Shown piece by piece: positions 20,519-46,405 of a DNA stretch of 64,000 bases. Source of the stretch: Minisyncoccia bacterium (GTDB lineage: Bacteria; Patescibacteriota; Minisyncoccia; Phycocordibacterales; PALSA-1337). The stretch lies in contig JBEKVT010000002.1 in NCBI GenBank assembly GCA_049997795.1, positions 1,664 through 65,663 on the forward strand, in the 5' to 3' direction. The notes beneath the pieces are model-generated. The model saw nothing but the letters and a program-made list of their open reading frames with translations. It did not search any database and was not told where the DNA came from. Numbering within the stretch: the first letter of the stretch is position 1; the number at the start of each line of letters is the position of its first letter. A program made the translations under genes and the position numbers.

Positions 20519-20663
20519 GACGCCCCTCCTTTCTTGGTTGTGGCCTCCGTTCGGACGGTGGCCATTATTGTTGAGTTTATTCGGTTATCAAAAGGTTGTC
20601 TGACAAAAGACAGCCGAACTATATTTGTCGGGATTATATATCAAGAAGATTGATAAGTCAAGG

Positions 20664-20745
20664 TGCCGGGGAGAGGACTCGAACCTCCATAGATTGCTCC
20701 ACATGCTCCTAAGGCATGCGCGTCTACCAATTTCGCCACCCCGGC
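20664..20745 (-). tRNA. tRNA-Leu (anticodon TAG), long variable arm
   Basis: Cloverleaf by eye: GCCGGGGTGGCGAAATTGGTAGACGC...GGTTCGAGTCCTCTCCCCGGCA. Confidence 0.8.
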
Positions 20746-20779
20746 ATTGACGAAGGACCCAACGCTCGGAACTGCCTTG

Positions 20780-20852
20780 TCCGCCCAGTTGGATTCGAAC
20801 CAACGACCAATCGCTTAAGAGGCGAGTGCTCTACCAGCTGAGCTATGGGCGG
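20780..20852 (-). tRNA. tRNA-Lys (anticodon CTT)
   Basis: CCGCCCATAGCTCAGCTGGTAGAGCACTCGCCTCTTAAGCG...GGTTCGAATCCAACTGGGCGGA. Confidence 0.8.
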
Positions 20853-21508: not shown

Positions 21509-21597
21509 GTTCGCCAGACGCGCTGATTTTTGATCAATCCGATCGACCAGTGTTCCAGTCGATCGCGTCGACGAGGAATCAATCACTGCACATTAGC

Positions 21598-22509
21598 ATG
21601 GCCAATCGACATCTCTCCCGTTCCGTCGTCCTGCAGTCCCTTTTTGAATGGGATTTCTGCGGTCAGAAGCCGAAGGCCGTCCCGGCCATCGTCGAGAGGA
21701 ACGTCAAGGAATTCGCTCCCGGCCTCTCCGACATCTCTTTCGTCGGGGACCTCTTGAAAGGCGTCATCGGCAAGAGAAAGGAGATCGACGCCATCATCGA
21801 GAAGGCCGCTCCAGAATGGCCTCTAGACAAGATCTCTCCGGTGGACCGGAACGTCCTTCGATTAGGCCTCTACGAGCTCCTGTTCGCCGACCGCTCCGAA
21901 GTGCCGGCCAAGGTGGCCATCAACGAAGCCATCGAGCTCGGCAAGACTTTCGGCGGCGAGGCTTCCGGTCGTTTCGTGAACGGCGTCCTCGGGGCCGTCT
22001 ACAAGGAGCTCGGCGAGCCGGGCAAGGACGCCACGCCGGCCAAAGACAAGAAGAAAAGGCCGGCCGAAGTGCCGTACGAGAAGATGCCGGTCCAGCATTT
22101 GGGCGGAGCGGTGGTCTACGCAAGGAGCGGCAAGGACATATATCTGGCCTTCGTCCACGACATCTTCGGACACTGGACCCTGTCGAAGGGCAAGATCGCC
22201 GAAGGCATAGATCCGGCCGAGGGCACGATAAGCAAGGTCAAGGAGGAGATTGGCCTTTCCGTCACGATCAAGGCCGACCTCGGCACGAACGAGTACATCG
22301 CCAACGACCCGGAGATCGGCAAGCTCAGGAAACAAGTGCATTATTATCTGGCCGAAGCGCCCTTCGGAGATCTCGCCCTGGCCAAGAAGCCGGGCCTCGA
22401 CGACGCCAAGTGGTTCAAGCTCGCCGATATCCTCGAACTGAATTTCTACAACGACATCCTGCCGATCGTCACCAAGGCCATAACTATCCTGTCCCAGAAG
22501 GAAAAATGA
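21598..22509 (+). CDS. nusB: Transcription antitermination factor NusB fused to a C-terminal Nudix-like domain
   Basis: N-terminal 145 aa canonical NusB (LFEWDF...VDRNVLRLGLYELLF); C-terminal ~150 aa with degenerate Nudix box G-x...SKVKEEIGL. Confidence 0.7.
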   Translation: MANRHLSRSVVLQSLFEWDFCGQKPKAVPAIVERNVKEFAPGLSDISFVGDLLKGVIGKRKEIDAIIEKAAPEWPLDKISPVDRNVLRLGLYELLFADRSEVPAKVAINEAIELGKTFGGEASGRFVNGVLGAVYKELGEPGKDATPAKDKKKRPAEVPYEKMPVQHLGGAVVYARSGKDIYLAFVHDIFGHWTLSKGKIAEGIDPAEGTISKVKEEIGLSVTIKADLGTNEYIANDPEIGKLRKQVHYYLAEAPFGDLALAKKPGLDDAKWFKLADILELNFYNDILPIVTKAITILSQKEK

Positions 22510-22510
22510 C

Positions 22511-23209
22511 ATGAGCGCGAACTTCGAATCATTGGCGGAACATATCGGCGTCGATTTCGACGATATCTCGCTCCTTAGAGCCGCCTGCACCCACCGCTCT
22601 TACTTGAACGAGAACAAAGGCGCCGGCCTGGAGCACAATGAGCGCTTGGAATTCCTGGGCGACGCGGTCCTCGAGCTTGTCACGACAAGCTTCCTCTTCC
22701 GCAAATACCCGAAAAAATCGGAAGGGGAGCTGACCGCCTTCCGCTCGGCCATCGTCAATACGGTCTCTCTTACCAAGGTGGCGGAGCGCATCGGCCTGGA
22801 CGGCTTCATCCTCTTGTCCAAAGGCGAGGCCAAAGACACCGGCCGGGCCCGTTCGGTCATCATCGCCAACGCCGTCGAAGCCGTTATCGGCGCCATATAC
22901 ATCGACAAAGGATACGACGCCGCGGCCAATTTCATCTCCGATCACGTCCTTTACGTCATCGACATCGAGAATATCGTCGAGAACAAGTCCTGGCTCGACG
23001 CCAAGAGCCATTTCCAGGAGGCGGCCCAAGAAAAAGCCGGGGCCACGCCGACCTACCGGACTCTGAAAGAGACCGGCCCTGACCACGACAAGCACTTCGT
23101 CTTGGGCGTGTTCCTCGGCGACGTCCAAATAGCGACGGGGAGCGGCGCTTCGAAGCAGGAAGCCGAGCAGATGGCGGCCAAGAAGGCGCTCGAGGTCAAG
23201 GGTTGGTAG
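22511..23209 (+). CDS. rnc: Ribonuclease III
   Basis: ERLEFLGDAVLELVTT signature, C-terminal dsRBD. Confidence 0.9.
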   Translation: MSANFESLAEHIGVDFDDISLLRAACTHRSYLNENKGAGLEHNERLEFLGDAVLELVTTSFLFRKYPKKSEGELTAFRSAIVNTVSLTKVAERIGLDGFILLSKGEAKDTGRARSVIIANAVEAVIGAIYIDKGYDAAANFISDHVLYVIDIENIVENKSWLDAKSHFQEAAQEKAGATPTYRTLKETGPDHDKHFVLGVFLGDVQIATGSGASKQEAEQMAAKKALEVKGW

Positions 23210-23346: not shown

Positions 23347-25611
23347 GTGAACCTAAAATCCCTGGAATTGTCTGGCTTCAAGTCGTTCGCCAAGAAGGCG
23401 ACGCTTCATTTTAGCTCGCCGATAACCGGCATCGTTGGGCCCAACGGCTCCGGCAAATCGAACGTGGCCGAAGCCTTCCAGTTCGTCCTGGGCGAGCAAT
23501 CCATCAAGTCCCTGCGGGGCAAGCGCGGCGAAGACCTCATCTGGAACGGCGGCGGGAATGCCCCGGCCGGCACAGGCCGGGCCAACCGGGCCGGGGTCAA
23601 GCTCACCTTCGACAATTCGCGGCGGATGTTCCCGGCCGTGGACTTCGACGAGGTGGCCGTCGAGCGCGTCGTCCACCGCGATAACCTGAACGAATACATA
23701 TTGAACGGCAGCCAGGTTCGCCTGAAAGACATCGTCGAGATCCTCTCCGGCGCCCACATCGGCGCGACGGGCCATCACATCATCTCCCAAGGCGAAGCCG
23801 ACCGCATCCTGTCCGCCTCCATAAGAGAGCGGCGCGAGATGATCGAGGACGCCTTGGGCCTCAAGATCTACCAATGGAAGAAGCTCGAGAGCCTCCGAAA
23901 GCTCGAGCGGACCGACGAGAACATGAAGCAGGTCGAGTCGTTGCGCCGGGAGATCGCTCCTCACCTCAAGTTCCTTAAGAAGCAAGTCGAAAAGATCGAA
24001 AAGGCCGAATCGATGCGCTCAGAGCTCATCTCCCTGTACAAAGAATATTTTGGGAGGGAAGAGCGCCGCCTGAAGGCGGAAAGGGAGAGGCTGGAGCGCG
24101 GCTTGGCTGGGCCGAAGAAGGAACTGGCTGAGCTCGACCACGGCCTGGAGAAAGCCAAAGAAACCTTGACGGCTTCGAAGAACAAGGATCATAAGAGCGA
24201 CGAGATAGTGGCTCTCGAAGGCAAGCTTGCCGGCATCCGCGCCGAGAAAGACGCAGTCACCCGAAAGCTGGGACGCCTCGAAGGCGAGATGAACGCCGAC
24301 AAGAGAGCCATCGAGAAGGAGAAAGAGAGGCAGAAGAGGGACGAGTTCAAGACGGTCTATCTGAAGGATCTCGAGGAAGTCGTGGCCAAGATCGAATCCT
24401 TTGAGTCCATCACCGAAGCCGGCAGATTATTCTCTGAAACCATCGGCCTGCTTAAGGCATTTATCGCCAAGCACCGCGGCGCGCCGGATTCTTCCTTGGT
24501 CGGCGAGGCGGAAAGGGAGATCGAGGCGCTCTCCAAAGAAAGGTCTGGTCACGAAGAGAGGCTCGAAGCTCTCAGCGCTTCCGAATCGGAGGTTTCGGCC
24601 GAGTACGACAGCCTGAAGAAAGCCATCGAGAAAGAGAAAGACACCGACCGGGACGCCGAGAAAGACGTCTTCAGGATCATCGCCAGGCAGAACGAGGTAC
24701 GGGCCGTCGTCTCGAGCCTTTCCACGGAGCTCGACGCCGTCGGACGCGACGAGGCGGCCATGAAACGCGAACTCGGCGAAGCCGGTTCGATAGCCGGGCG
24801 GCAAGCCCTGGATTACGCCGGCACGGCGGCGCCGGCCGGAGAAGCGAAGGAAGTCCAGGAAGAGAGGAAGAAGAGGATCGAGAAGCTCAAGATCCGCCTG
24901 GAGGACGCCGGCGGCGGCGATCTCGAGGTCATGAAGGAATACAAAGAAACCGAGGAGCGGGACGCCTTCCTCGGACGCGAGCTCGGAGATCTCGACAAGG
25001 CCGGCAAGGAATTGAGGCAGCTCGTCGCCGATCTCGAGACGCGGATAGATTCGGAATTCAAGAGCGGCGTATCGAAGATCAACGCCGAGTTCCAGAAGTT
25101 CTTCACGCTGATGTTCGGCGGAGGTAGGGCGGAGCTCTACGTCGTCAAGGAGCCGAAACGCCGCAAGAGGAGCGAGACGGAAGAGCTCGGGGAAGCCCTA
25201 TCCAGCGGCGAGGAGGAACTGGGAAAAGGCGAGGATGAAGACGAAGAAGAAGGCCCTGAAGGCCTGGAGATAGACGTCAGCCTCCCCAGGAAGAAAGTGA
25301 AAGGCCTGATGATGCTCTCCGGCGGCGAACGGGCCCTGACCTCGATCGCCCTTCTCTTCGCCGTCTCCCAAGTCAATCCGCCGCCTTTTATCGTCCTCGA
25401 CGAGACTGACGCGGCCCTCGACGAGGCCAACTCGAGGAAATACGGCGACATGATCAAGGACCTTTCCAAGCGCTCCCAGCTCATCTTGATCACCCACAAT
25501 CGGGAGACGATGTCTCGGGCCGGCGTCCTCTACGGCGTCACTATGGGAAGCGATGGGGCGTCGAAGCTCCTTTCGATCGCCTTCGAAGAGGCGGTACGAG
25601 TGGCGAAGTAA
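23347..25611 (+). CDS. smc: SMC-family ATPase, short (754 aa) hinge-less form in conserved rnc-smc position
   Basis: N-terminal VNLKSLELSGFKSF...GPNGSGKSN Walker A; C-terminal LSGGERALTSIALLFA signature, FIVLDETDAALD Walker B; GTG start 6 nt after TATAAT (23335-23340); start is my choice (the track's 23293 start lies in the palindrome). Confidence 0.8.
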   Translation: MNLKSLELSGFKSFAKKATLHFSSPITGIVGPNGSGKSNVAEAFQFVLGEQSIKSLRGKRGEDLIWNGGGNAPAGTGRANRAGVKLTFDNSRRMFPAVDFDEVAVERVVHRDNLNEYILNGSQVRLKDIVEILSGAHIGATGHHIISQGEADRILSASIRERREMIEDALGLKIYQWKKLESLRKLERTDENMKQVESLRREIAPHLKFLKKQVEKIEKAESMRSELISLYKEYFGREERRLKAERERLERGLAGPKKELAELDHGLEKAKETLTASKNKDHKSDEIVALEGKLAGIRAEKDAVTRKLGRLEGEMNADKRAIEKEKERQKRDEFKTVYLKDLEEVVAKIESFESITEAGRLFSETIGLLKAFIAKHRGAPDSSLVGEAEREIEALSKERSGHEERLEALSASESEVSAEYDSLKKAIEKEKDTDRDAEKDVFRIIARQNEVRAVVSSLSTELDAVGRDEAAMKRELGEAGSIAGRQALDYAGTAAPAGEAKEVQEERKKRIEKLKIRLEDAGGGDLEVMKEYKETEERDAFLGRELGDLDKAGKELRQLVADLETRIDSEFKSGVSKINAEFQKFFTLMFGGGRAELYVVKEPKRRKRSETEELGEALSSGEEELGKGEDEDEEEGPEGLEIDVSLPRKKVKGLMMLSGGERALTSIALLFAVSQVNPPPFIVLDETDAALDEANSRKYGDMIKDLSKRSQLILITHNRETMSRAGVLYGVTMGSDGASKLLSIAFEEAVRVAK

Positions 25612-25674
25612 GGAACGCTTCAAGAGCCGGAACGGCCTTTACATTTGGGCCGTTTCCTTTTAGACTGCAGATAT

Positions 25675-26433
25675 ATGGAGTCTCTCTCGAAACAGCAAAT
25701 GATACTCCTTGCCCTCTTGGTGTCTTTCGTGACCTCTCTCGCCACGGGCATCACCACGGTCTCGCTCATGGACCAGTCGCCCAATATGACGAGGACCATC
25801 ACCCAGGTCATACAGCAGACCGTTTCAGGGCTATCGACCGGCGGGGCATCTTCGACAGCCGCCGTGGCCATAGCCGTGAATGACGAAGTTGCTGACGCCA
25901 CTGCCTCGATCGAGCCTTCCATCGTCCGCTTGCGCGACGGAGACAGCGGTCCGGTCGTGGGCTTGGGCCTCATCGTCTCCGGATCGGGGGCCATCATGTC
26001 CGACAAGGATCTGACCGATACCCTCAATTCGCCGGAGGCGGTCTTCCCGAACGGTACTTCCGTGCCGATCGCCGTGGCCCGCTTCCAGATAAACGGCGAC
26101 GTGGCCTTCCTCGTCCCGACCAGGTCCATCTCGATCTCCATGAGGCCGATCGTCTTCGGCTCCGCGGCCCGTCTCGGCGCCTCGCTTTGGTCCTTGACCG
26201 GCACATCCACTTATACCTTGTCGCAAGGCATCGTGACCGAGCTCGTCCCGATCTCCGGATCCGAGCTTTCGTCGATACGCACCTCGATCGTCGCTCCCAA
26301 GATGCTTCCTGGCACGCCGCTCTTCGACGCCACGGGCGCAGTCATAGGCATGGCTACCACCGGTTCGCTTTCAGGCAGCCAAGGCGCTTCATTCTATCCG
26401 ATCCAGGAAGTTAGGACCGCCGTGCCGAGATGA
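25675..26433 (+). CDS. Membrane-anchored trypsin-like (HtrA/S1-family-like) protein, catalytic Ser apparently absent
   Basis: PGTPLFDATGAVIGMATTG aligns to HtrA NPGNSGGPLVNxxGEVIGINT but lacks GNSGG Ser. Confidence 0.5.
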   Translation: MESLSKQQMILLALLVSFVTSLATGITTVSLMDQSPNMTRTITQVIQQTVSGLSTGGASSTAAVAIAVNDEVADATASIEPSIVRLRDGDSGPVVGLGLIVSGSGAIMSDKDLTDTLNSPEAVFPNGTSVPIAVARFQINGDVAFLVPTRSISISMRPIVFGSAARLGASLWSLTGTSTYTLSQGIVTELVPISGSELSSIRTSIVAPKMLPGTPLFDATGAVIGMATTGSLSGSQGASFYPIQEVRTAVPR

Positions 26434-26580: not shown

Positions 26581-26609
26581 TTGATTCCGGCGTATTTTTG
26601 TAGTAATAT
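26581..26609 (+). promoter_or_regulatory. Candidate clpB promoter TTGATT-17-TAATAT, 13 nt before ATG
   Basis: Seen in sequence; no CIRCE element recognised. Confidence 0.4.
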
Positions 26610-26622
26610 ATGGCCGAAATCG

Positions 26623-29325
26623 ATGCCTCCTATCAATAAACTCACCACAAAGGCCAGGGAAGCCCTTAAAAAGGCCCACGAATTGGCCATAGAACGCGGC
26701 CAGAACCACGTCAACCCCGTGCACCTTTTATGCGCTCTCATCCTCCAGGAAGAGAGCATGGTGGCTTCGATCCTGGACAAGCTGGAAGTCGACACGCCGA
26801 TGCTCTCGGACATCGTCCTGGAGCACATCGAGGCGCCCGAAGGCTCGAGCGTCCTGTCGCCGTCATATCAGATCTACCTCACCCCGGACCTGGCTCAGAT
26901 CCTGGACAATTCGCTCCGAGTGGCCGGACTCTTGAAGGATGAGTTCATCTCCACCGAGCACCTCTTCCTGTCGATCTTCGACATCCCGTGCACGGCCCGT
27001 GACATCCTCGGCCGTTTCAAGATAGAGCGCGACGCCGTGACCAAGGTCATTGAAGAACTCAAGGCCAACCCGCCTTCCCGCGACACCGAGCCGAAGAAAT
27101 TCCGCACTCTCTACAAATACGCCAGATCGCTCACTAGGCTTGCCCGCGAGAACAAGCTCGATCCGGTCATAGGCCGCGATAACGAGATCATGCGCATCAT
27201 CCAAATCCTGTCGCGCCGGACCAAGAACAACCCGATCCTGATCGGCGAGGCCGGCGTGGGCAAGACCGCCATCGTGGAAGGCTTGGCTCTTCGCATGTCC
27301 CAAGGCGACGTGCCGGAATCGATCAAAGACAAGGAGCTGGTATCGCTCGACCTCGGCCAATTGATCGCCGGCACCAAGTACCGCGGCGAATTCGAAGAAC
27401 GCCTGAAGAACATCCTGAAGGAAGTCGAACGAGCCGAAGGCAAGATCATCCTCTTCGTCGACGAGATCCACACCCTGGTCGGCGCCGGCGCCTCCGAGGG
27501 TTCGATGGACGCCTCCAACATGCTGAAGCCGGCCCTCTCCCGGGGTGAACTCCGGGCCATCGGCGCCACCACCATAAAGGAATACCAGAAATACATCGAG
27601 CGCGACCCGGCCCTGACCCGCCGCTTCCAGCCAGTCTATGTCTCCGAGCCCTCCGTCGAAGATGCCATCTCCATCCTGCGCGGCCTCAAGGAGAAATACG
27701 AGATGTTCCACGGCGTACGGATCACCGACGACGCCATCGTGGCGGCCGTCAACCTGGCCAGCCGCTACATCACCGATCGCTTCCTGCCGGACAAAGTTGT
27801 CGACCTCGTGGATGAAGCCGCCTCCTCGCTCAGGATCTCGCTCGAGAACATGCCGCCCAAGCTGGAAGAGACCAGGAGGAAGATCATGCGGCTCGGGATA
27901 GAGCGCGAAGCCCTGAAGAAAGAGACGGAGAAAGCCGCCAGGATGCGCATGACGAAGATCGATCACGAAATAGCGGATCTCAAAGAATCGACTTCGGAGC
28001 TTGAGCTCAAATGGAAGAACGAGAAGGAGACCATCACCGACCTGAAGCGCATCAAGAGGGAACTAGAGGCCATGCGCATCGAGGCCGACATGGCCGAAGC
28101 CAGGTCCGACCTCTCGAAGGCCGCTGAATTGCGCTACGGACGCATCCCGGCTCTGGAAAAAGACCTCGAATCAAAGAATCGCCGCCTGAAGAAGCTGCAG
28201 TCCTCGAGGCGCATCCTGAAGGAAGAGATCACCGCCGAAGACATCGCCGGCGTGGTCTCTCGCTGGACCGGCATCCCGGTCTCGCGGATGCTGGAGTCCG
28301 AGGCCTCGAAGTTGACGCGCATGGAGATCGAATTGAAGAAGCGCATCGTGGGCCAGGACGAGGCCGTCACGAAGATATCCGACACGGTCAGGCGCTCCAG
28401 AGCCGGCATCGCCGACCCGGCCCGGCCGATCGGCTCGTTCATCTTCCTGGGCCCGACCGGCGTCGGCAAGACGGAGCTCACCAAGGCCCTGGCCGAATTC
28501 CTGTTCAACGACGAAAAGGCCCTGATCCGGGTGGACATGTCCGAATTCATGGAGAAGCACAGTGTCTCGAAGTTGATCGGCGCCCCTCCGGGCTACGTGG
28601 GCTACGACGAGGCCGGCAGCCTGACCGAGGCAGTCCGCCACCGTCCGTACGCGGTCATCCTCTTCGACGAGATAGAGAAAGCCCATCCGGAAGTCTTCAA
28701 CATCCTCTTGCAGGTCCTCGACAACGGCCGGCTGACCGACTCCAAGGGCCGGGTGGTCAACTTCAGGAACACGGTCATCATCATGACCTCGAACATCGGC
28801 GCCCAACACATCGAGCGCATGGAGAAGCTCGGCTTCTCGAAGGACCAAGGCAACCGCGACCGCGACAATTACGCCGAGGCCAAGGAGAAGATCAACGCCG
28901 CCCTCAAGGATTATTTCCGTCCCGAATTCCTGAACCGCATAGACGACATCATCATCTTCGACATCCTGTCGCCGGAAGCGGTCAGGGAGATAGTCAGGAT
29001 CCAAGTCGGGGAAGTGACGAAGCGCCTCGCCGAGAAGTCAGTCGAGCTCATCCTCTCGCCGGCCGCTCTGGATTATCTGGCCAAGGAGGGCTACAACCCG
29101 CAGTACGGCGCCCGGCCCTTGAAGCGCCTGATCCAATCGAGGATACTCACCCCGGTGGCGAACCTGCTTATCGGCCAGGAAGTGGCGAAGGGCGGTCAGG
29201 TCCTGGTCGGCGTGAAAGACGTCGCCGGCAAGGAGGGCGTCAAGGAATTCACTTTCGAAGTCAAGAAGAAGCACAAAGGCGAGAGCCCGATCATCGCGCG
29301 CGAAACGGCGGCAGAGAAACGCTAG
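26623..29325 (+). CDS. clpB: Chaperone ClpB (AAA+ disaggregase with long middle coiled-coil)
   Basis: 900 aa; two Walker A ([20 protein letters not shown]), N-domain repeats, M-domain coiled coil. Confidence 0.9.
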
Positions 29326-29374: not shown

Positions 29375-29458
29375 GCGCAGGTGGCAGAGTGGTCAATTGC
29401 AATGGACTGTAAATCCATCGCCCTATGGGCTACGGGGGTTCAAATCCCTCCCTGCGCA
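29375..29458 (+). tRNA. tRNA-Tyr (anticodon GTA), long variable arm
   Basis: GCGCAGGTGGCAGAGTGG...ACTGTAAATCC...GGGGGTTCAAATCCCTCCCTGCGCA. Confidence 0.85.
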
Positions 29459-29475
29459 CAAATCTTTTGTGATAT

Positions 29476-32128: not shown

Positions 32129-32199
32129 GGGCGATTAGTTAAGTGGCATAACTGCGGTCTCCAAAACCGCTGTCGGGGGTTCGATTCCCTCATCGCCCG
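32129..32199 (+). tRNA. tRNA-Trp (anticodon CCA)
   Basis: GGGCGATTAGTTAAGTGGCATAACTGCGGTCTCCAAAACCGC...GGGGGTTCGATTCCCTCATCGCCCG. Confidence 0.8.
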
Positions 32200-32204
32200 C
32201 AATA

Positions 32205-36653: not shown

Positions 36654-36655
36654 TG

Positions 36656-36737
36656 TGCCGGGAGGGAGAATCGAACTCCCATGGATTACTCCGCACGATT
36701 TTGAGTCGTGTGCGTCTACCAATTCCGCCATCCCGGC
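36656..36737 (-). tRNA. tRNA-Leu (anticodon CAA), long variable arm; 2 nt upstream of miaA start
   Basis: GCCGGGATGGCGGAATTGGTAGACGC...ACTCAAAATCGT...GGAGTTCGATTCTCCCTCCCGGCA. Confidence 0.8.
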
Positions 36738-46230: not shown

Positions 46231-46301
46231 TGCGGGATCGTCTAATGGTAGGACACGAGCCTTTGAAGCTCGCTATCTTGGTTCGACTCCAAGTCCCGCA
46301 G
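46231..46301 (+). tRNA. tRNA-Gln (anticodon TTG)
   Basis: TGCGGGATCGTCTAATGGTAGGACACGAGCCTTTGAAGCTCG...GGTTCGACTCCAAGTCCCGCAG. Confidence 0.8.
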
Positions 46302-46405
46302 CAGACAAAAAATTGTTTATCCTAGACAAGCCAAACGTTCCGTGGTAGATTCTCCACGATTTCGAACGTTCTTTTCCCAACCATCCAACCAACCCAGTCC
46401 GAATC

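What the first reader, a model, noticed from the sequence alone, without database searches (positions are those of the whole stretch)
23347..25611. Unusually short, apparently hinge-less SMC homolog in the conserved rnc-smc position
The gene after rnc encodes only about 754 aa, where typical bacterial SMC is about 1100-1200 aa. It has the canonical SMC N-terminal head (Walker A GPNGSGKSN) and C-terminal head (LSGGERALTSIALLFA signature, Walker B FIVLDETDAALD, H-loop ITHN). The middle is a long coiled coil of Glu/Lys/Arg-rich heptads. It has no recognisable ~150-aa hinge domain and no Rad50-like CxxC zinc hook; only a short non-helical stretch near residues ~370-420 (ESFESITEAGRLFSETIGLLKAFIAKHRGAPDSS). 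This may be a minimal SMC with a novel dimerisation element, or a RecN-like or SMC-like paralog that has taken the syntenic slot.
Basis: partly seen in the sequence, partly recalled or inferred. Interest (0 to 1): 0.55.

Follow-up and report, generated by a model that had tools for sequence, protein, structure and literature searches.

The report
Hinge-less, half-length bacterial SMC protein
The gene after rnc encodes this uncultured bacterium's chromosome-organising SMC ATPase in a naturally shortened form, shared by hundreds of related candidate-phylum bacteria, that lacks the hinge domain through which well-studied SMC proteins pair up.

Summary
Window 23347-25611 (+) is an intact 754-aa ORF directly after rnc, with a complete SMC ATPase head, no Pfam SMC hinge and no cysteine, so no zinc hook. 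It is not an artefact: the identical protein is on 19 contigs from independent assemblies. At least 150 clusters at 50% identity, from Minisyncoccia/Paceibacteria (Taylorbacteria, Zambryskibacteria), align end to end at 717-780 aa.

It derives from SMC, not RecN or Rad50: TIGR02168 scores 527 bits against 50 or less for the others. Residues 3-355 and 387-744 match model positions 2-352 and 858-1179, so about 505 central positions (distal arms plus hinge) are replaced by a roughly 49-residue helix-loop-helix tip. AlphaFold2 gives head, neck, joint and an arm about half the normal length. Strand lengths are nearly invariant across the family, but the tip sequence is poorly conserved.

How two protomers are held together is unresolved. 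I could not test for ScpA/ScpB or a second SMC, because only 64 kb of the genome is readable. I found no paper describing this in Patescibacteria; a 2025 paper reports hinge-less SMCs in marine Actinobacteria. Verdict: a real new variant of a known kind, of moderate to high interest.

The parts
22511..23209 (+). rnc (RNase III), immediately upstream; conserved neighbour
   Evidence: Pfam Ribonucleas_3_3 3e-38 plus dsrm. The order L32-nusB-rnc-smc is kept in 22-27 of 31 loci.
23347..25611 (+). Short hinge-less smc CDS (754 aa, GTG start, stop 25609-25611)
   Evidence: ORF list. 100% identical to P0001 'Minisyncoccia bacterium'. TIGR02168 527.5 bits.
23347..23841 (+). N-terminal half of the ATPase head (aa 1-165), with Walker A GPNGSGKSN at 23437-23463 and Q-loop Q148
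   Evidence: 42% identity to B. subtilis Smc 1-208 (hhalign). PDB phmmer 7e-82 to Bs Smc head. Motifs verified.
23842..24345 (+). N-terminal arm strand (aa 166-333): neck, joint-facing part, predicted break at 277-281 (SKNKD), distal segment 282-333
   Evidence: AF2 helices 173-276 and 282-333. Length of 166-320 is nearly invariant (median 155, sd 2.5) in 85 relatives.
24262..24285 (+). RKLGRLEG (aa 306-313), the most conserved element of the distal arm; R306, G309, R310 and G313 fall on exposed b/c/f heptad positions
   Evidence: G309 is kept in 74/85 and G313 in 76/85 diverse relatives. The second Gly aligns with G302 of B. subtilis 'KLEG'.
24346..24492 (+). Tip (aa 334-382): helix 339-350, variable loop 351-357 (the chain reversal), helix 358-376; it replaces distal arms plus hinge
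   Evidence: AF2 pLDDT 68-81. Indels cluster in the loops. F372 is essentially invariant and the hydrophobic a/d(+e/g) pattern is kept. No NCBIfam or PDB match beyond chance.
24493..25116 (+). C-terminal arm strand (aa 383-590): distal 382-429, break 430-432 inside the conserved IEKEKDTDRDAEKDVFRIIARQNE, 433-483, variable joint loop 484-500 (24796-24846), joint/neck helices 501-521 and 525-590
   Evidence: AF2. Residues 387-744 match TIGR02168 positions 858-1179. Residues 506-599 align to B. subtilis Smc ~968-1061.
25117..25608 (+). C-terminal half of the head (aa 591-754): signature LSGGERALT 25315-25341, Walker B/D-loop FIVLDETDAALD 25387-25422, H-loop ITHN 25489-25500
   Evidence: This is the most conserved part of the family (conservation 0.79-0.95).
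25144..25257 (+). Family-specific basic-then-acidic low-complexity insert in the C-head (aa 600-637)
   Evidence: Absent from the B. subtilis Smc alignment, which jumps from 599 to 638. pLDDT <50. Length 14-41 aa across the family.

Best explanation
This is the lineage's SMC (condensin) ATPase in a naturally truncated form.

Shown: it keeps the canonical Smc head, neck and joint. It keeps only the head-proximal ~165-190 residues of each arm strand. The region that in standard Smc holds the distal arms and the hinge (about 505 of 1181 model positions) is replaced by a ~49-residue, cysteine-free helix-loop-helix tip. The form is conserved, with almost fixed strand lengths, in hundreds of Minisyncoccia/Paceibacteria sequences, in the conserved position after rnc.

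Inferred: it binds and hydrolyses ATP by head engagement like Smc, because all catalytic motifs are intact. It acts as a dimer on chromosomal DNA, probably with a kleisin, as a rod or ring with arms of roughly 25-28 nm, about half the usual ~47-50 nm. The two protomers are most likely held together at the distal end by packing of the helical tips and distal arm segments (a small helical bundle, loosely RecN-like), possibly reinforced by kleisin bridging of the heads. The mode of dimerisation is the weakest step and is not demonstrated.
For: - Identity as SMC: TIGR02168 scores 527.5 bits, against 50 for Rad50, 42 for RecN and 38 for RecF. PDB phmmer gives 7e-82 to B. subtilis Smc head constructs. 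The Foldseek top hits are prokaryotic Smc head+coiled coil+joint 5xei and Smc-ScpA complexes 5xns, 5xg3 and 4i99, with TM(target) 0.67-0.86.
- In-register internal deletion: residues 3-355 match model positions 2-352 and residues 387-744 match 858-1179. With the B. subtilis arm pairing taken from PDB construct boundaries (245-380 with 792-929, sum ~1173), the retained ends (~Bs 322 and ~860) lie within about one heptad of being partners.
- Genuine and selected: the identical protein is on 19 contigs from independent assemblies. The best 150 clusters at 50% identity are all about 640-780 aa, apart from three shorter partial matches; most align over nearly the whole query at 41-58% identity. A further 240 clusters at 90% identity are all about 740-860 aa, the excess being miscalled starts or loop inserts, and none has a hinge Pfam.
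- Constrained architecture: strand lengths have sd 1-2.5 residues, indels are confined to loops, and N and C halves co-vary with r=0.57.
- Synteny L32-nusB-rnc-smc.
- Structure: AF2 with mean pLDDT 80.8 gives an antiparallel arm capped by two short helices.
- Tip: higher hydrophobic density than the mid-arm and an invariant F372.
- Arm length of about 160-175 residues by Burmann-type boundaries falls near the minor natural mode of 163 aa and fits the ~91-aa periodicity reported for functional Smc arms (PMC5344682).
- The same paper shows the B. subtilis hinge can be replaced by a Rad50 zinc hook, so a non-hinge dimeriser can in principle suffice.
Against: - The whole-protein score is below NCBI's equivalog cutoff (527.5 < 567.35).
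- The tip is the least conserved part of the protein across the wide family (conservation 0.26, 14% identity to the window protein). A canonical hinge is expected, from general knowledge, to be well conserved. The tip may therefore be only a turn.
- No dimer model could be computed.
- No ScpA or ScpB was found among the 44 window ORFs scanned, nor a ScpA N-terminal motif in 560 kb of related loci. These cover only a small part of each genome, so partner presence is unknown.
- A canonical smc elsewhere in the genome is not excluded.
- The second Gly of the conserved RxLGRxEG motif is shared with B. subtilis Smc, so the motif is not clearly a new interface.
Confidence: 0.7

Rival explanations
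1. Same protein, different mechanics: the tip is only a chain reversal and does not dimerise. Two protomers would be joined only by ATP-dependent head engagement and by a kleisin bridging neck and cap. The complex would then clamp DNA in a kleisin/head compartment while the short arms stay free or serve as binding platforms.
For: The tip has the lowest sequence conservation in the protein and variable loops. There is no hinge, no hook and no conserved polar or Cys motif at the apex. The neck and joint are much more conserved than the distal arm (0.51-0.55 against 0.26-0.33).
Against: Strand lengths and the lengths of both tip helices are almost invariant over 41-100% identity, which is hard to explain for arms with no distal function. 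The hydrophobic stripe of tip helix 358-376 is wider (a, d plus e/g) than a two-helix hairpin needs. The truncation keeps the arm in register and near the ~91-aa periodic length rule.
Confidence: 0.2
2. A specialised SMC paralogue that coexists with a canonical full-length Smc-ScpAB (or MukBEF/MksBEF) encoded elsewhere in the genome.
For: The rest of the genome could not be read. The whole-protein score is below the TIGR02168 equivalog cutoff. PGAP names it only 'AAA family ATPase'.
Against: It occupies the conserved rnc-smc position in 26-27 of 31 loci. Its head is 42% identical to B. subtilis Smc over the first ~208 residues. No second SMC-like ORF lies in the 64-kb window. General knowledge, also stated in PMC12153180, is that prokaryotes almost always have a single smc.
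Confidence: 0.12
3. A RecN- or SbcC/Rad50-type DNA-repair ATPase rather than an SMC.
For: The overall size and short coiled coil resemble RecN or SbcC. Weak NCBIfam hits: Rad50 50 bits, RecN 42 bits.
Against: Those scores are an order of magnitude below the SMC score and far below their cutoffs of 408-1087. There is no CxxC and no Cys at all. The Foldseek top hits are Smc heads with the joint, and no RecN is in the top 50. No mre11/sbcD-like neighbour was seen.
Confidence: 0.02
4. Assembly artefact, internal deletion in one MAG, or a pseudogene.
For: None beyond the unusual length.
Against: The ORF is intact and the window has no N bases. The identical protein is in 19 contigs from independent samples and assemblers. 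Hundreds of diverged relatives have the same length and architecture, with catalytic motifs invariant.
Confidence: 0.01

Closest known systems
Canonical bacterial Smc of Smc-ScpAB condensin (NCBIfam TIGR02168; B. subtilis Smc, 1186 aa)
   Same: The ATPase head has all motifs. The neck and joint architecture match. The gene sits after rnc. The head-proximal arm is collinear with model positions 2-352 and 858-1179.
   Different: There is no hinge domain (PF06470). About 505 central model positions are missing. Arm strands are ~165-190 aa instead of ~344. The C-head carries an extra charged low-complexity insert. The score is below the equivalog cutoff.
Engineered B. subtilis Mini-Smc and Smc(Zn-hook) chimeras (Burmann et al. 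2017, PMC5344682)
   Same: Shortened arms, and in Smc(Zh) a non-hinge dimeriser that was reported as functional. Function depended on arm length following a ~91-aa period, and the natural protein's ~160-175-aa arm lies near two periods below 344 (my estimate).
   Different: The window protein is natural and conserved. It is shorter than the functional lengths I read for the hinge-containing Mini-Smc series (253-267 aa; zinc-hook series lengths not read). It has neither hinge nor zinc hook.
'Hinge-less' SMC variants of marine Actinobacteria (PMC12153180, 2025)
   Same: SMC-type head, antiparallel coiled coil, no hinge, no CxxC. That paper interprets them as divergent SMC rather than Rad50/SbcC.
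   Different: A different phylum, so presumably an independent loss. Those were retrieved under an 80%-coverage rule from ~1200-aa seeds, so they are probably longer.
RecN
   Same: A short SMC-superfamily ATPase without a hinge. From general knowledge it dimerises through the distal end of its coiled coil, which makes it a plausible mechanical analogue for a tip-tip dimer.
   Different: The head is not RecN-type (42 bits against a cutoff of 408). RecN has no joint or kleisin-type neck. The genomic context differs.
Rad50/SbcC and the archaeal ASRP/ClsN family (PMC9389158)
   Same: SMC-superfamily proteins with a coiled coil and no SMC hinge. A weak NCBIfam ASRP hit of 35 bits.
   Different: These dimerise through a CxxC zinc hook. 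The window protein and its family have no conserved cysteine.

Membership tests
Bacterial Smc (TIGR02168 / COG1196) | Split ABC-type head with Walker A, Q-loop, signature LSGGE, Walker B/D-loop and H-loop | tested here: met
   All motifs are present and invariant in the family.
Bacterial Smc (TIGR02168 / COG1196) | Head closer to Smc than to RecN, Rad50/SbcC, RecF or MukB | tested here: met
   527.5 bits against 50 or less. PDB 7e-82 to Bs Smc. Foldseek top hits are Smc, with MukB at rank 47.
Bacterial Smc (TIGR02168 / COG1196) | Whole-protein score at or above the curated equivalog cutoff | tested here: not met
   527.5 < 567.35.
Bacterial Smc (TIGR02168 / COG1196) | Central hinge dimerisation domain (Pfam PF06470) | tested here: not met
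   No hit at E<=0.1. None in 240 relatives' precomputed Pfam. Model positions 353-857 are unmatched. The tip has no family or PDB match.
Bacterial Smc (TIGR02168 / COG1196) | Long antiparallel arm (~340 aa per strand, ~47-50 nm) | tested here: not met
   About 165-190 aa per strand.
Bacterial Smc (TIGR02168 / COG1196) | Neck and joint next to the head | tested here: met
   AF2 helices 173-276 and 501-590 with the joint loop. Best Foldseek hit is 5xei 'head with coiled coil and joint'.
Bacterial Smc (TIGR02168 / COG1196) | Conserved gene position downstream of rnc | tested here: met
Bacterial Smc (TIGR02168 / COG1196) | Partner kleisin ScpA and KITE protein ScpB in the genome | not testable with these tools
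   None among the 44 window ORFs scanned or in 560 kb of related loci by ScpA motif. Less than 10% of the genome is readable.
Bacterial Smc (TIGR02168 / COG1196) | Stable homodimer | not testable with these tools
Only monomer AF2 is available.
RecN (TIGR00634) | RecN-type head scoring above the cutoff | tested here: not met
   42 bits against 407.85.
Rad50/SbcC and ASRP/ClsN | CxxC zinc hook at the coiled-coil apex | tested here: not met
   Zero Cys in the protein, and no column with >10% Cys in 85 relatives.
Hinge-less actinobacterial SMC clade (PMC12153180) | Monophyly with that environmental clade | not tested
   Only the description was read. The taxon differs (Actinomycetes against Minisyncoccia).

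The most novel reading that the evidence does not exclude
A major bacterial lineage (Minisyncoccia/Paceibacteria) may run its chromosome with a single SMC that has no hinge and no zinc hook. Its protomers would be held together by a new cysteine-free helical tip, or only through heads and kleisin. This would be a natural half-size SMC motor, showing that the hinge is dispensable for SMC function in vivo.
Probability: 0.4. Interest if true: 0.78.

Novelty: new variant of a known kind. Interest (0 to 1): 0.62.

Why it matters
The hinge is treated as a defining and functionally important part of SMC complexes, serving as the dimerisation site, a DNA-binding site and a proposed gate. A listed abstract (PMC12647877) describes obstacle bypass by an SMC complex, and its title calls the hinge a selective gate.

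If this protein is the sole SMC in a large clade, three things follow:
- It would show what minimal architecture supports SMC function.
- It would provide a natural test of the arm-length periodicity rule from Mini-Smc engineering (PMC5344682).
- It would offer a much smaller complex for structural work on a whole SMC holocomplex.

It may also reflect scaling of the machine to ultra-small cells and ~0.7-1 Mb genomes, which is speculation. In practice, annotation pipelines currently label these proteins only 'AAA family ATPase', so SMC presence or absence in Patescibacteria surveys may be misjudged.

Tried and rejected
- Homodimer modelling: I concatenated two copies of the distal arm plus tip with a Gly/Ser linker in a paired alignment.
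- PDB sequence searches with the arm or tip alone gave only chance hits: coronavirus spike HR1 at E=0.07, and designed coiled coils and TIM barrels.
- hhalign of the family profile against B. subtilis Smc returned only the N-head. A local hmmsearch aligned the arms collinearly but with low confidence.
- I rebuilt the B. subtilis Smc sequence from memory. It is identical to PDB chains 5nnv, 5nmo and 5xg3 over the arm segments they cover. The remainder is not validated. The hinge part matched only the Geobacillus homologue.
- Looking for ScpA/ScpB: Pfam or NCBIfam on 44 window ORFs, a ScpA N-terminal motif regex on 560 kb of loci, and neighbour clustering in 31 loci. All were negative, and all are uninformative for the whole genome.
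- A paper that seemed to show ScpA/B in a CPR organism (TM7x) actually refers to host genes, so I discarded it.
- Cluster look-up for taxon names of distant relatives gave almost no names.
- Literature searches for a prior description in Patescibacteria/CPR/Parcubacteria found nothing. The library covers open-access papers only.
- I left the third large protein search unused, because no query would have surfaced CPR ScpA/ScpB or hinge-bearing CPR SMCs among the top 120 hits.
Full report
**1. Observation**

Window 23293/23347-25611 (+) is a single open reading frame. Every homologue begins at the residue encoded by GTG 23347 (MYLKSLE...), so the product is 754 aa. The window contains no N bases.

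The upstream gene (22511-23209) is RNase III, and before it lies a NusB-NUDIX fusion. Pfam reports only SMC_N spanning residues 3-739 and no SMC_hinge.

The protein has no cysteine, and no alignment column reaches 10% Cys in 85 diverse relatives, so a Rad50-type hook is excluded. The 'non-helical' middle stretch is residues 350-383 in 754-aa numbering. AlphaFold2 predicts it as two short helices with loops.

**2. Not an artefact**

- The identical protein is called on 19 contigs from JGI, Logan, ENA and NCBI assemblies of different samples, including a 657-kb contig.
- The best 120 clusters at 90% identity are 66-100% identical and 736-863 aa. The few above ~800 aa are explained by miscalled upstream starts or loop inserts.
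- An exhaustive HMMER scan of 1.84 billion cluster representatives put 150 clusters at 50% identity at the top. All are about 640-780 aa, apart from three shorter partial matches. Most align over nearly the whole query at 41-58% identity.
- A profile search gave another 120 clusters of 744-795 aa.
- None of these 240 clusters has a hinge Pfam on record.
- Named sources are Minisyncoccia, Paceibacterota, Parcubacteria, Taylorbacteria and Zambryskibacteria.

**3. What it is**

NCBIfam TIGR02168 (bacterial SMC) scores 527.5 bits. Rad50 scores 50, RecN 42 and RecF 38. The SMC score is nevertheless below the curated cutoff of 567.35.

The match is in two blocks. Residues 3-355 match model positions 2-352, and residues 387-744 match positions 858-1179. 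About 505 central positions of the 1181-position model, covering the distal arms and the hinge, therefore have no counterpart. They are replaced by about 31-49 residues.

PDB sequence search gives 7e-82 to B. subtilis Smc head constructs. hhalign gives 42% identity over B. subtilis residues 1-208.

AlphaFold2 with a 139-sequence alignment (mean pLDDT 80.8) predicts:
- the head;
- arm helices 173-276 and 282-333;
- tip helices 339-350 and 358-376;
- arm helices 382-429 and 433-483;
- a variable loop at 484-500;
- joint and neck helices 501-521 and 525-590.

Foldseek against the PDB ranks prokaryotic Smc 'head with coiled coil and joint' (5xei) and Smc-ScpA complexes first, with TM(target) 0.67-0.86. 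RecN is not in the top 50.

**4. The truncation is in register**

I rebuilt the B. subtilis Smc sequence from memory. It is identical to PDB chains 5nnv, 5nmo and 5xg3 over the arm segments they cover. The remainder, including the hinge, is not validated.

The construct boundaries (245-380 fused to 792-929, and 210-254 with 921-1011) imply that paired arm residues sum to about 1173. A local hmmsearch of the family profile aligns family G313 with B. subtilis G302 of 'KLEG'. The family's N strand therefore ends near B. subtilis residue 322, and its C strand restarts near 860. That sum is 1182, within about one heptad of being partners.

By Burmann-type boundaries the retained arm is about 160-175 residues. 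PMC5344682 reports natural prokaryotic arm-length modes at 238, 341 and 515 aa, with possible minor modes at 163 and 423. It also reports a ~91-aa period for function and a functional Smc in which a Rad50 zinc hook replaces the hinge. The present arm lies near 344 minus two periods. This estimate depends on where boundaries are drawn and is approximate.

**5. Family-level constraints**

In 85 relatives at 41-58% identity:
- the N strand 166-320 has median length 155 (sd 2.5);
- the C strand 391-483 has median length 93 (sd 1.2);
- the two tip helices have median lengths 13 and 20 (sd 0.5 and 1.6).

Indels are confined to the pre-tip, tip loop, post-tip, joint loop and a head insert. The N and C halves co-vary in length with r=0.57.

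Sequence conservation is high in the heads (0.72-0.79), intermediate in the neck and joint (0.51-0.55), and lowest in the distal arm and tip (0.26-0.33).

The tip keeps its hydrophobic pattern. Positions 342, 345, 349, 358, 362, 365, 369 and 372 are hydrophobic in at least 82% of relatives, and F372 is essentially invariant. Partly hydrophobic e/g positions widen the stripe of helix 358-376. The hydrophobic density of the tip exceeds that of the mid-arm.

The best-conserved distal element is R306-x-L-G309-R-x-E-G313. Its conserved R and G residues sit on exposed b/c/f heptad positions. Its second Gly is shared with B. subtilis, so it may be an ancestral arm feature.

**6. Surroundings**

The order L32-nusB(-NUDIX)-rnc-smc is kept in 22-27 of 31 loci. 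Downstream genes vary: a membrane-anchored trypsin-like protein and clpB in the window's relatives, and mreBCD-PBP2-like genes in others. No conserved candidate partner gene flanks smc.

No ScpA, ScpB or second SMC-like protein was found among the 44 window ORFs scanned. A ScpA N-terminal motif was absent from 560 kb of loci. These negatives cover under 10% of any genome and do not show absence.

**7. Mechanism**

Shown: an intact Smc-type ATPase head, neck and joint on a half-length arm capped by a small helical tip.

Inferred from established Smc biology: ATP-dependent head engagement, action as a dimer on DNA, and probable use of a kleisin. The neck, joint and extreme C-terminus are strongly conserved, which is consistent with partner binding.

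The dimerisation mode is open. I favour distal contact through the tip and distal arm, at roughly even odds, for three reasons:
- the lengths of the arm and tip helices are tightly constrained;
- the arm is truncated in phase;
- the tip has a broader hydrophobic face than a two-helix hairpin needs.

The main rival is that the tip is merely a turn and the dimer is held by the heads and kleisin only. The tip's poor sequence conservation supports this rival.

**8. Comparison and novelty**

The protein works like, and descends from, bacterial Smc. It fails three defining tests: the hinge, the arm length and the equivalog cutoff. It is not RecN, Rad50/SbcC or ASRP/ClsN; the last was read to use a zinc hook, and Rad50/SbcC use one by general knowledge.

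[quoted passage not shown] I found no description for Patescibacteria in the searchable open-access literature.

Databases hold hundreds of these sequences, labelled 'AAA family ATPase' or 'chromosome segregation protein'. I rate it a new variant of a known kind, with interest about 0.6. The decisive missing facts are whether it is the only SMC in these genomes, whether ScpAB is present, and how it dimerises.

Noticed in passing
window 21550-22509 (+): NusB (aa 23-152) is fused to a NUDIX hydrolase domain (aa 188-301). The same fusion is called in independent JGI copies, and a ~300-aa homologue precedes rnc in 27 of 31 related loci.
   Followed up: partly
window 25144-25257 (+), SMC aa 600-637: A basic-then-acidic low-complexity insert (KRRKRSE...EDEDEEE) lies inside the C-terminal head. 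It is absent from B. subtilis Smc, predicted disordered, and 14-41 aa long across the family. Its function is unknown.
   Followed up: partly
window 24175-24189 and 24625-24702 (+), SMC aa 277-281 and 427-452: AF2 predicts facing breaks in the two arm strands (277-281 SKNKD; 430-432 inside IEKEKDTDRDAEKDVFRIIARQNE). Both segments are near-invariant in the close subfamily but not in the wider family. They could be an elbow or a partner site.
   Followed up: partly
window 25645-26433 (+): The gene downstream of smc encodes a 262-aa protein with an N-terminal hydrophobic segment and a sub-threshold Trypsin_2 match (23.4 bits against a cutoff of 27.6). The usual GNSGGP-like serine motif reads PGTPLF by eye. 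It is conserved in 9 loci.
   Followed up: no
L030 13168-15948 versus window 26581-29325: clpB is one 914-aa ORF in the window but is called as two genes (370 and 368 aa, with small reverse-strand ORFs between) in the 72%-identical relative on an 876-kb contig.
   Followed up: no
L002, L003, L004, L013, L015, L025 downstream of smc: In six related loci smc is followed by genes that look like mreB, mreC, mreD, a PBP2-type transpeptidase, greA and lysS. These were identified by eye from sequence motifs and were not Pfam-tested.
   Followed up: no
window 24019-24861 (+), SMC aa 225-505: The best PDB sequence match of the distal arm plus tip is the HR1/central-helix region of a coronavirus spike protein (E=0.07). 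I judge it a chance resemblance between helical hairpins.
   Followed up: yes
L030 5718-7283: A serine recombinase (Resolvase/Recombinase Pfam) sits just upstream of the L32-nusB-rnc-smc block in one relative but not in the window.
   Followed up: no
window 20662-20852, 29375-29459, 32129-32200, 36655-36737, 46231-46302: There are six tRNA genes (Leu-tag, Lys-ctt, Tyr-gta, Trp-cca, Leu-caa, Gln-ttg). Several spurious long ORFs overlap them.
   Followed up: no
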